From the human T2T-CHM13v2.0 reference genome, Homo sapiens: a stretch of DNA of 64,000 nucleotides. The notes beneath the pieces were generated by a model. That model was not told where the DNA came from. It worked only from the letters and a program-made list of their open reading frames with translations, and ran no database searches. The stretch lies in assembly GCF_009914755.1 (NCBI RefSeq), contig NC_060926.1. One strand, written 5' to 3'. This document shows, piece after piece, positions 24,723 through 31,782 of this stretch (position 1 is the stretch's first letter; each line of letters starts with the position of its first letter). The position numbers and the translations under genes were made by a program.

Positions 24723-24795
24723 CTTCGCACTGGTTCCTTGGAAGAATCTTCCACCTTGTTTTTATCACATTTTCCAAAATTTGTAGTCCATAGTA
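24723..24795 (-). CDS. XPO1: XPO1 coding exon 4, 73 nt, YYGLQILENVIKTRWKILPRNQCE(G)
   Basis: Visible inside ORF 24664..24879; acceptor ttttcag at 24797-24796, donor AAG|GTAGGA at 24722; importin-beta N-terminal (Ran-binding) region. Confidence 0.97.
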
Positions 24796-26754: not shown

Positions 26755-27030
26755 GGGCCAGGCAAAGTGGCCCTCGCCTGTAATCCCAACATTTTGGGGA
26801 GGCCAAGGCGGGAGGGCCAGGAGTTCAAGATCAGCCTGAGCAACACAGGGAGACCCCACTTCTATAAAAAAATTGGTAAGTTAGCGAGGCATGGTGACAC
26901 GCACCTGTAGCCCTAGCTACTCAGAAAGTTGAGGCAGAAATGTCACTTAAGCCCAGGAGTTTGAGGTTACAGTGAGCTATAATCACACCACTGCACTCCA
27001 GCCTGGGCAACAGAGGTCCTGTCTCTTCAA
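26755..27030 (+). mobile_element. AluJ, the only Alu in intron 3
   Basis: ggccaggcaaagtggccctcgcctgtaatccc... Confidence 0.88.
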
Positions 27031-27449
27031 AGAATTTTTTTTCTTTTTTTTTTTAGTATTTTTGCTCAAAAATCTGAAGTGACAGTCAAATCTGAAAGCC
27101 AATGATAAATCACTACAATCCAAACATTCTAAAGAATTATACTTTTGCCTTACATCTCCAAACTTGAGAAATCCACTGCTGAGTTATGAAGATGAGGGAC
27201 AGATAACAGCAAAGACTAAATGAAAAAATAAATGCATGAAATGATCCCTATGGTAGAAATTTCTACTGAGCCCTTAGAAATACTTATTTTATGCATTGAA
27301 TTCCCCTTTCCCCTCCCACCGCCCATGAAACAAAAACAATTGATGAACAGAATTCAGTTAAAGGGAATCAAAAGGGTAGACCTTGTGGAGGCCTGCCGTC
27401 AAAGCCTAGCTGTGTCAGTTGCACAGGAAGACACCCCTTTTCTTCCTAT

Positions 27450-27760
27450 TACAAGCAATCAACATAATGGAACATTATGATTAATATCAGGTAGTGTTAA
27501 CATCTTTAAAGAAAAAAAAATGATTGCATAAAAGCCAAATGTCATAGTGCATAAATTTAGCACCAAATCATTTGTAATTTATGTAAATTGAAGAATTCTT
27601 TACCTGTTGCTTTCTTTCTGTTCCTCTAATCATCTCATTTTTCACAAGACAAATTTGAGTTTTTAAAAATACTGTTGATAAATCAACTTAAACATTAGTA
27701 ATGTCTGTCAGTATAAAAAGCAAAATTTACCAGGCAAGCAAACAGGCAAACACTGTTATG
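27450..27760. other. Probable ultraconserved element uc.63 (XPO1 intron 3); boundaries approximate
   Basis: uc.63 is described as lying in XPO1 intron 3 (recalled from literature); this is the repeat-free, splice-signal-rich block of that intron. Conservation cannot be seen from one sequence. Confidence 0.6.
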
Positions 27761-28431
27761 TTACTTAAGGTTAGCACTTTGAGGAAGTTCTGGACTGTAT
27801 TTTTGACCTAAAATTTACAAGATGTCAAAACTAATTAATATTTTAAAACTGTTAATTAACAAAGTCTGGTTTCAGAAACAGATGTGAATATGGCTATCTT
27901 CTGTTTTAACACAATGTATATCAAGTGGAAACCTTTCGTGTATTAAACAGAATGCCATAGTATTTATTACTTTAAGGCAGTTTAAAGAGAAGCGTGAATC
28001 ATCAAGCCTAAAACAGACAAAACACATTTTGATCAACCCTTCTGTTCAAACTTAAAAAAGGACCAGAATTATAACATTTTCCATTGTAAATAAAAACTGA
28101 GTGCTGTCCCATTAGAAGCCCAATGCCATGGAGTAGGGTTTTAAGCTGTCCACACAACTTGGTGTCAGAGGTGCCTGGCCTGTATTATATTGATTACTTG
28201 CCCAAAATAATTCCTTAATGTTATGTTTAATCTCTGAATAACATTCAGAATTTATGCTACTTAGACCTGTATACATATACTAAAAAGAAAAAAACAAAAT
28301 CAGACAACCAAAAAAGCCACCTTGCATACTAGTCCCATTACAAAACTTCATTCATAATTCTTAGGACTATTTGCAAGAATTAATTATATGCTTAAGACTA
28401 AATTTTGAAACAAATTAACAATATAAAATAA

Positions 28432-31782
<3,351 letters not shown>

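What the first reader, a model, noticed from the sequence alone, without database searches (positions are those of the whole stretch)
27604..27700. Poison cassette B inside the probable uc.63: candidate AS-NMD autoregulatory switch for XPO1
Seen: minus strand TACTAAT (near-consensus branch point, A at 27695, ~23 nt from the AG; also a QKI/SF1 ACUAAY motif), then gtttaagttgatttatcaacag|TATTTTTAA...GAGGAACAGAAAGAAAGCAACAG|GTAAAG. This is a 68-nt exon with a purine-rich ESE-like 3' half, a good donor and TAA at codon 3. The weak pyrimidine tract can fold into GUUGA-UUUA-UCAAC right before the AG. Established: ultraconserved elements often mark poison exons of autoregulated genes (e.g. SR proteins), and XPO1 mRNA rises on XPO1 inhibition (selinexor, leptomycin B). 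Inference: uc.63, usually treated as an independent intronic lncRNA, may be a splicing rheostat. A shuttling XPO1-cargo RBP would sense export capacity and tune poison-exon inclusion.
Basis: partly seen in the sequence, partly recalled or inferred. Interest (0 to 1): 0.85.

Follow-up and report, generated by a model that had tools for sequence, protein, structure and literature searches.

The report
Known XPO1 poison exon in uc.63
This is a real 68-base "poison" exon of the nuclear-export gene XPO1 that sits inside an ultraconserved element and sends the message for decay; its mouse twin is already published, and the idea that it lets XPO1 sense its own activity is untested.

Summary
The sequence observation holds. 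On the minus strand there is TACTAAT (27700..27694), a weak pyrimidine tract, an AG at 27673-27672, a 68-nt exon (27671..27604) and a CAG|GTAAAG donor. Spliced after XPO1 exon 3, the exon reads Y-F-stop.

Four published uc.63 oligos map uniquely to 27573..27755. The exon, its branch site and both splice sites therefore lie inside uc.63.

The exon is not new. RefSeq already uses its donor. Zhuravskaya et al. 2024 (PMC11188260, supplements) list two cycloheximide-stabilised NMD-stimulating cassette exons in mouse Xpo1. They are 68 and 64 nt long with a 158-nt intron between them, the same geometry as human 27671..27604 and 27445..27382. The authors confirmed them by RT-PCR with primers that map to human exons 3 and 4.

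The motif pattern alone is not beyond chance: 1 hit on the gene strand, 3 on the opposite strand. The proposed hairpin is not significant (z -0.60).

The autoregulation idea has no supporting data. Six library searches found no paper linking this exon to XPO1 activity. It is plausible and testable, because the rise of XPO1 mRNA on selinexor is described as an unexplained feedback loop.

Verdict: already-known poison exon, speculative rheostat.

The parts
27694..27700 (-). Branch-point-like TACTAAT, branch A at 27695, 23 nt upstream of the acceptor G
   Evidence: Read directly. It is the yUnAy candidate at a typical distance from the AG. It lies inside the uc.63 siRNA-1 target 27683-27705.
27672..27693 (-). 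Weak pyrimidine tract plus acceptor AG (27673-27672); holds an extra AG at 27688-27687 and a 5-bp hairpin that is not significant
   Evidence: 11 of 20 pyrimidines; z -0.60; AG positions.
27604..27671 (-). 68-nt poison (NMD-stimulating) cassette exon B of XPO1; in-frame TAA at 27665..27663
   Evidence: length, stop at codon 79. The hub's RefSeq table lists exon 27604-27666 with the same donor. The mouse orthologue chr11:23218623-23218690 (GRCm39) is a CHX-responsive NS-CE in PMC11188260 supplements.
27598..27603 (-). Intronic part of the donor, GTAAAG
   Evidence: 7 of 9 match to the recalled consensus.
27446..27603 (-). 158-nt intron between the two poison exons, the same length as in mouse
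   Evidence: Mouse coordinates give 23218691..23218848 = 158 nt.
27382..27445 (-). 64-nt poison exon A: frameshift with a stop at codon 137; the more used of the two in mouse; lies outside uc.63
   Evidence: It is in the hub's RefSeq table. The mouse orthologue is chr11:23218849-23218912, PSI 0.574 under CHX against 0.219 in DMSO.
27573..27755 (-). Part of ultraconserved element uc.63 (278 bp in all) anchored by four published oligos
   Evidence: each oligo has one match in the window and 0 in 100 shuffles.
28532..28633 (-). XPO1 constitutive exon 3 (upstream splice partner), ends in phase 0
   Evidence: Hub annotation.
24723..24795 (-). XPO1 constitutive exon 4 (downstream splice partner)
   Evidence: Hub annotation.

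Best explanation
The stretch 27671..27604 (minus strand) is a genuine alternative 68-nt cassette exon in intron 3 of XPO1, lying wholly inside ultraconserved element uc.63. When it is spliced between exons 3 and 4, translation stops at its third codon, after 78 residues of XPO1. More than 20 exon junctions remain downstream, so the isoform should be degraded by nonsense-mediated decay. A second poison exon of 64 nt lies 158 nt downstream. Together they form a tandem unproductive-splicing module that lowers the yield of productive XPO1 mRNA. A weak pyrimidine tract, a near-perfect branch site and a GAA/purine-rich exon half suggest that inclusion depends on trans-acting enhancer proteins and can therefore be tuned (inferred). 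The only regulation shown so far is developmental: in mouse, inclusion of both exons rises as Xpo1 falls during neuronal differentiation. The 'uc.63 lncRNA' measured in cancer papers is most simply unspliced or partly spliced XPO1 pre-mRNA across this module (inferred).
For: - Sequence anatomy and reading frame.
- Identity with uc.63: the four oligos that Marini et al. 2016 designed on the uc.63 sequence (PMC5482607, passages read) map once each to 27573..27755.
- Human usage of the donor: the RefSeq exon 27604-27666 in the hub table.
- Mouse usage: the supplements of PMC11188260 list chr11:23218623-23218690 (68 nt) and 23218849-23218912 (64 nt) as NMD-'Stimulating' cassette exons. PSI under CHX against DMSO is 0.145 vs 0.038 and 0.574 vs 0.219, event probability is 1 and PhastCons is 1. 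Correlation of NMD-protective splicing with Xpo1 expression is r 0.739 and 0.945.
- Orthology: order, lengths and the 226-nt start-to-start spacing are identical to human.
[quoted passage not shown] The RT-PCR primers map to human exons 3 and 4.
[quoted passage not shown] Their forward primer and both siRNA targets are intronic.
Against: - No human junction reads or NMD-inhibition data were seen here.
- Human RefSeq does not annotate the 27671 acceptor; its exon starts at 27666 without an AG.
- In mouse this exon is the minor one, with PSI 0.038 without CHX. Its quantitative effect on XPO1 output could be small.
- Cycloheximide is an indirect NMD block.
- The sequence pattern alone is not rarer than chance.
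- Ultraconservation of 278 bp exceeds what a 68-nt exon with its splice signals obviously needs, so another constraint may coexist.
- I could not see Fig. S9 of PMC11188260, so I cannot say which RT-PCR band corresponds to which exon.
Confidence: 0.85

Rival explanations
1. One reading: the exon is a homeostatic rheostat. Reduced XPO1 export activity changes the nuclear level of a shuttling splicing regulator (or of an NMD factor), poison-exon inclusion falls, and productive XPO1 mRNA rises.
For: - XPO1 mRNA induction on selinexor is described as a feedback loop that senses export inhibition, with no mechanism given (PMC9434827, discussion passage).
- The poison exon exists and has enhancer-dependent architecture.
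- XPO1 scored as an unexpected activator of exon inclusion in a tethering screen, and it exports snRNAs (PMC11389820, passages).
- By recalled knowledge, ultraconserved poison exons are typical of autoregulated splicing factors.
Against: - No data link XPO1 activity to this exon. Searches found no such paper in the library; the supplements of most papers and papers not held were not searched.
- XPO1 is not an RNA-binding splicing factor, so any loop must be indirect.
- Basal inclusion of this exon is low in mouse (0.038). Repressing it further could raise mRNA only slightly, so the 64-nt exon would have to carry the effect.
- The known regulation is developmental.
- The mRNA rise could be transcriptional.
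Confidence: 0.15
2. The ultraconservation reflects a DNA-level function, such as a developmental enhancer or another protein-binding module, and the poison exon is a passenger or a second, overlapping function.
For: - By recalled knowledge, many intronic ultraconserved elements act as enhancers.
- Two TGCATAAA motifs lie 23 bp apart at 27525-27555.
- 278 bp of perfect conservation is more than the exon and its splice signals obviously need.
Against: - The RefSeq functional-element list in the hub table has no enhancer or silencer at this place.
- TGCATAAA is not enriched in the window: 4 against 4.76 expected.
- The exon and all its signals sit centrally in the anchored part of uc.63.
- The neighbouring 64-nt exon outside uc.63 also has PhastCons 1, which fits constraint on the splicing module.
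Confidence: 0.2
3. uc.63 is an independent long non-coding RNA (T-UCR) with its own start and its own pro-survival function, as the cancer papers propose. The splice sites are incidental.
For: - Marini et al. report that uc.63 siRNAs cause apoptosis and XPO1 siRNAs do not (abstract and passages).
- The RefSeq exon 27604-27666 begins without an AG, as a first exon would.
Against: - The same paper says the transcript matches the XPO1 primary transcript from the end of intron 2 through exon 3 into intron 3, so it starts upstream of uc.63.
- No promoter was characterised.
- The qPCR amplicon 27603-27755 cannot tell it from pre-mRNA.
- 5' ends of transcript models are often truncated cDNAs (recalled).
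- The mouse data show a spliced 68-nt cassette.
Confidence: 0.1
4. The exon is splicing noise: a pseudo-exon used at a low level and cleared by NMD, with no regulatory role.
For: - PSI is low without CHX (0.038).
- Similar motif conjunctions occur by chance in the window.
Against: - The exon and its flanks are perfectly conserved among human, mouse and rat, by the definition of an ultraconserved region (abstract of PMC9829027).
- Exon geometry is identical in mouse.
- Inclusion changes with the stage of differentiation and correlates with gene expression.
Confidence: 0.05

Closest known systems
Mouse Xpo1 NMD-stimulating cassette exons (Zhuravskaya et al. 2024, Genome Biol, PMC11188260)
   Same: - Same gene and the same intron; the RT-PCR primers map to human exons 3 and 4.
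- Same lengths (68 and 64 nt), the same order and the same 158-nt spacing.
- By the definition of uc.63, the 68-nt exon has the same sequence.
   Different: - The data are from mouse embryonic-stem-cell-derived neurons and use cycloheximide.
- In the passages read and the searches run, the paper does not name uc.63 and does not test XPO1 inhibitors or feedback.
Ultraconserved poison exons of SR-protein and other splicing-factor genes (Lareau 2007, Ni 2007; recalled, not read here)
   Same: - A stop-bearing cassette exon inside an element perfectly conserved among mammals.
- A purine-rich exon and NMD of the included isoform.
   Different: - Those genes encode RNA-binding proteins that bind their own pre-mRNA.
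- XPO1 is a transport receptor, so direct autoregulation has no obvious route and none has been shown.
T-UCR uc.63 / Uc.63+ lncRNA of breast and prostate cancer papers (PMC5482607 passages read; PMC5706872 search listing only)
   Same: Same 278-bp element and the same strand as XPO1.
   Different: - Those papers treat it as an independent non-coding RNA. They do not mention the splice sites, the stop codon or NMD; no paper in the library holds both 'uc.63' and 'nonsense-mediated'.
- Their assays cannot separate it from XPO1 pre-mRNA.
PTC-introducing exon-skipping event in Chlamydomonas XPO1 (PMC7534427, passages)
   Same: An alternative splicing event that puts a premature stop in the N-terminal importin-beta domain of XPO1, with PSI changing over the diurnal cell cycle.
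   Different: A green alga, a different event type and no sequence relation shown. If it is a parallel at all, it arose independently.

Membership tests
Poison (NMD-stimulating) cassette exon | Bounded by a usable acceptor (branch site, AG) and donor (GT) on the gene strand | tested here: met
   TACTAAT 23 nt from the AG and a donor matching at 7 of 9. The pyrimidine tract is weak (11 of 20).
Poison (NMD-stimulating) cassette exon | Inclusion creates a premature stop more than 50-55 nt upstream of the last exon junction | tested here: met
   the stop is at codon 79, in exon B itself. The hub table gives 25 exons for NM_003400.4, so many junctions follow.
Poison (NMD-stimulating) cassette exon | Actually spliced into transcripts as a cassette | tested here: met
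   Mouse: listed as a cassette exon (CE) from RNA-seq, with RT-PCR reported. Human: only the donor is in RefSeq (hub table), and no human junction counts were available here.
Poison (NMD-stimulating) cassette exon | The included isoform accumulates when NMD is blocked | tested here: met
   Mouse only, with cycloheximide: PSI 0.145 against 0.038. No specific NMD-factor depletion and no human data were seen.
Ultraconserved element uc.63 (Bejerano 2004 set) | The place in the window is the element called uc.63 | tested here: met
   Two primers and two siRNA targets designed on the uc.63 sequence each match once, at 27573..27755. Third intron of XPO1, as stated.
Ultraconserved element uc.63 (Bejerano 2004 set) | At least 200 bp with 100% identity among human, mouse and rat | not testable with these tools
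   No vertebrate genomes are held. This is taken from the literature (abstract of PMC9829027; 278 bp). The identical mouse exon geometry is consistent with it.
Autoregulatory AS-NMD loop | The activity or level of the gene's own product changes inclusion of its poison exon in the homeostatic direction | not testable with these tools
   No expression data are available here, and no paper was found.
Autoregulatory AS-NMD loop | The gene product, or a defined mediator, binds the pre-mRNA at or near the exon | not tested
   No CLIP data are available. The ACUAAU and GAA-rich motifs are only compatible with QKI/SF1 and TRA2/SR binding (motif assignments recalled).

The most novel reading that the evidence does not exclude
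The tandem poison-exon module in and beside uc.63 is the missing mechanism behind the XPO1 mRNA rise used as the clinical pharmacodynamic marker of selinexor. Export block traps or depletes a regulator. Candidates are an enhancer-type RBP cargo, UPF1 or other NMD factors (UPF1 shuttling through XPO1 is recalled), or more slowly the snRNP supply, which depends on XPO1-mediated snRNA export. Either the weak-tract poison exons are then skipped or their isoforms are stabilised. Part of the 'uc.63 lncRNA' cancer literature would then be reading out XPO1 pre-mRNA splicing state.
Probability: 0.15. Interest if true: 0.65.

Novelty: already known. Interest (0 to 1): 0.33.

Why it matters
XPO1 is an essential export receptor and a drug target (selinexor). 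A conserved unproductive-splicing module gives a handle for raising or lowering XPO1 with splice-switching oligonucleotides. It also offers a concrete, testable candidate for the unexplained drug-induced rise in XPO1 mRNA. It suggests that the 'uc.63 lncRNA' biomarker papers may be measuring XPO1 pre-mRNA or its splicing state. However, the exon itself is already annotated and is published in mouse. The remaining value is the explicit link between uc.63, the poison exon and the feedback hypothesis, which none of my searches found in print.

Tried and rejected
- **Hairpin at the acceptor:** folded. It is predicted but no better than shuffles (z -0.60), so I rejected it as evidence.
- **Whole uc.63 as a structured RNA:** my estimated span 27525-27802 gives z -0.66, and 49 of 200 shuffles fold as well. 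No signal.
- **Rfam scan of 26800-28700**: nothing in uc.63. The only matches are two below the gathering score, mir-3135-like and mir-1268-like, at 26882-27009.
- **TGCATAAA enrichment:** none at window level.
- **Chance test of the splice-motif conjunction**: not distinctive, so the sequence pattern cannot carry the claim.
- **Literature on XPO1 poison-exon autoregulation:** searches found only the mouse paper. I checked the other co-occurrences and they are unrelated to an XPO1 poison exon.
- **Thomas et al. 2020,** on ultraconserved poison exons, is not held. I do not know whether XPO1 was in their screen.
- **Earlier findings of this scan** were not open.
- **Exact ends of uc.63 in the window:** not fixed. 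My estimate 27525-27802 rests on a recalled hg19 coordinate for the XPO1 start. Only 27573-27755 is anchored by calls.
- **Day or sheet of the two mouse PSI rows:** not looked up.

Full report
**1. The observation**

- TACTAAT lies at 27700..27694, with the branch A at 27695.
- A purine-interrupted tract ends in AG at 27673-27672.
- The exon runs 27671..27604 and is 68 nt.
- The donor is CAG|GTAAAG.

The coding parts of exons 2 and 3 are 126 and 102 nt, so exon 3 ends in phase 0. The new exon therefore reads TAT TTT TAA. The predicted protein ends ...NTKYF* at codon 79.

The pyrimidine tract has 11 of 20 pyrimidines, against 12-17 of 20 for the 8 constitutive XPO1 exons scored in the window. 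The donor matches the (recalled) consensus at 7 of 9 positions, within their range of 5-8. The last 34 nt hold 27 purines, a level reached by 0.66% of the 63,967 34-nt windows on this strand.

If it were used, it would still lead into the same stop.

The small hairpin is predicted but is not better than chance: z -0.60, and 50 of 200 shuffles fold at least as well.

I also asked how often the window gives the same motif conjunction: TACTAAY, a first AG 15-40 nt on, and a donor matching at 7 of 9 or better within 40-250 nt. It occurs once on the gene strand (this site, out of 6 TACTAAY). It occurs three times on the other strand (out of 11 TACTAAY). The motifs are really there, but on their own they prove nothing. 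The case rests on outside evidence.

**2. It is uc.63**

Marini et al. 2016 (PMC5482607; abstract and passages read) place uc.63, 278 bp, in the third intron of XPO1, transcribed in the sense of XPO1. They give two primers and two siRNA targets designed on the uc.63 sequence.

Each of the four matches the window exactly once, and none matches in 100 shuffles. The positions are 27734-27755, 27603-27626, 27683-27705 and 27573-27595. So at least 27573..27755 belongs to uc.63. The exon, its branch site and both splice sites lie inside it.

Since uc.63 is 278 bp, it cannot reach below 27478. The second alternative exon (27445..27382) is therefore outside it.

**3. It is a poison exon, and that is already in print**

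The hub's RefSeq table lists alternative exons 27604-27666 and 27382-27445. It looks like a transcript start or a truncated cDNA. Human RefSeq supports the donor and not the acceptor.

The acceptor is supported by mouse data. Zhuravskaya et al. 2024 (Genome Biol, PMC11188260) name Xpo1 among four genes with evolutionarily conserved NMD-stimulating cassette exons (NS-CEs). [quoted passage not shown]

Their supplementary tables (GRCm39) list two such exons on the + strand.
- **chr11:23218623-23218690, 68 nt.** PSI is 0.145 with cycloheximide against 0.038 in DMSO. Correlation with gene expression is r 0.739. PhastCons is 1.
- **chr11:23218849-23218912, 64 nt.** PSI is 0.574 against 0.219. Correlation is r 0.945. 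PhastCons is 1.

Neither has a predicted PTBP1 effect (n/a). Their order, their lengths and the 158-nt intron between them equal those of human 27671..27604 and 27445..27382. The RT-PCR primers map to human exons 3 and 4, with 2 and 1 mismatches.

Including the 64-nt exon alone shifts the frame to a stop at codon 137. Including both gives the same early stop as exon B alone.

**4. How it most likely works**

Shown:
- the stop codon and its position;
- the conserved tandem exons;
- stabilisation by cycloheximide in mouse;
- a rise of inclusion as Xpo1 falls in differentiating mouse neurons.

Inferred:
- the included human isoforms are NMD substrates;
- the weak tract plus the purine/GAA-rich half makes inclusion depend on enhancer proteins, so that it can be tuned;
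- the module lowers productive XPO1 output.

In mouse the exon in the finding is the minor one. The 64-nt neighbour carries most of the effect.

**5. The autoregulation idea**

The rise of XPO1 mRNA on selinexor is real. It is described as a feedback loop that senses export inhibition, with no mechanism given (PMC9434827, discussion passage).

No paper in the library links that loop to this exon, or links uc.63 to NMD. Searches found only the mouse paper as relevant. The other co-occurrences proved unrelated when I read the passages.

XPO1 is not a splicing factor, so any loop must be indirect. Basal inclusion of this exon is low, so repressing it further could add little mRNA. I put the rheostat reading at about 0.15. 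It remains a cheap and clear experiment.

**6. The lncRNA reading**

The uc.63 qPCR amplicon (27603-27755) starts in the intron and ends at the exon's donor. Both siRNA targets are intronic. Marini et al. themselves say the transcript matches the XPO1 primary transcript, and that their siRNAs slightly lower XPO1 mRNA.

The simplest reading is that 'uc.63 RNA' is XPO1 pre-mRNA or a partly spliced form. The RefSeq 5' end at 27666 keeps a small door open for an internal start.

**7. Other checks**

- Folding of the estimated whole uc.63 span gives no structure signal (z -0.66).
- No Rfam family matches in uc.63.
- TGCATAAA is not enriched: 4 against 4.76 expected.

**8. Limits**

- No vertebrate genomes, RNA-seq or CLIP data were at hand.
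- Fig. S9 of PMC11188260 could not be seen.
- Thomas et al. 2020 is not held.
- The exact ends of uc.63 in the window are estimated from a recalled coordinate.

**Verdict**

The element is uc.63 and the exon is a true poison exon, but this is already known. The feedback switch is an untested hypothesis of moderate interest.

Noticed in passing
window 27382-27445 (-): A second, 64-nt poison exon lies 158 nt downstream of the one in the finding and outside uc.63. Its donor is very weak (AAG|GTCTAC, 4 of 9 to the recalled consensus), yet in mouse it is the more included of the two (PSI 0.219 in DMSO, 0.574 with CHX). Together the two exons add 132 nt, a multiple of three, but the stop in exon B still ends the frame.
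   Followed up: partly
window 27666 (-), 5' end of RefSeq exon 27604-27666: The annotated 5' end is preceded by TT, not AG. The human model therefore starts inside the poison exon, either as a truncated cDNA or as an internal start. The RefSeq exon 28532-28619 likewise begins without an AG.
   Followed up: partly
window 26882-27009: Sub-threshold Rfam matches to mir-3135 (59.6 bits, gathering score 80) and mir-1268 (24.5 bits, gathering score 83) lie on opposite strands. By recalled knowledge these families derive from repeats, so this is probably a repeat fragment and not a microRNA gene.
   Followed up: no
window 27525-27555 (+): Two TGCATAAA motifs lie 23 bp apart in the intron between the two poison exons, reading UUUAUGCA on the RNA strand. 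A third lies at 27288-27295 on the minus strand. They are not enriched at window level, and their meaning is unknown.
   Followed up: partly
literature, not the window (PMC7534427): Chlamydomonas XPO1 also has an alternative splicing event that introduces a premature stop in the N-terminal importin-beta domain, with PSI cycling up to 0.82 over the diurnal cycle. This may be an independent case of unproductive splicing control of exportin-1.
   Followed up: no
window 2021/1840 region, exon 7 donor: The constitutive exon 1840-2021 has a GC donor (CAG|GCAAGT), not GT.
   Followed up: no
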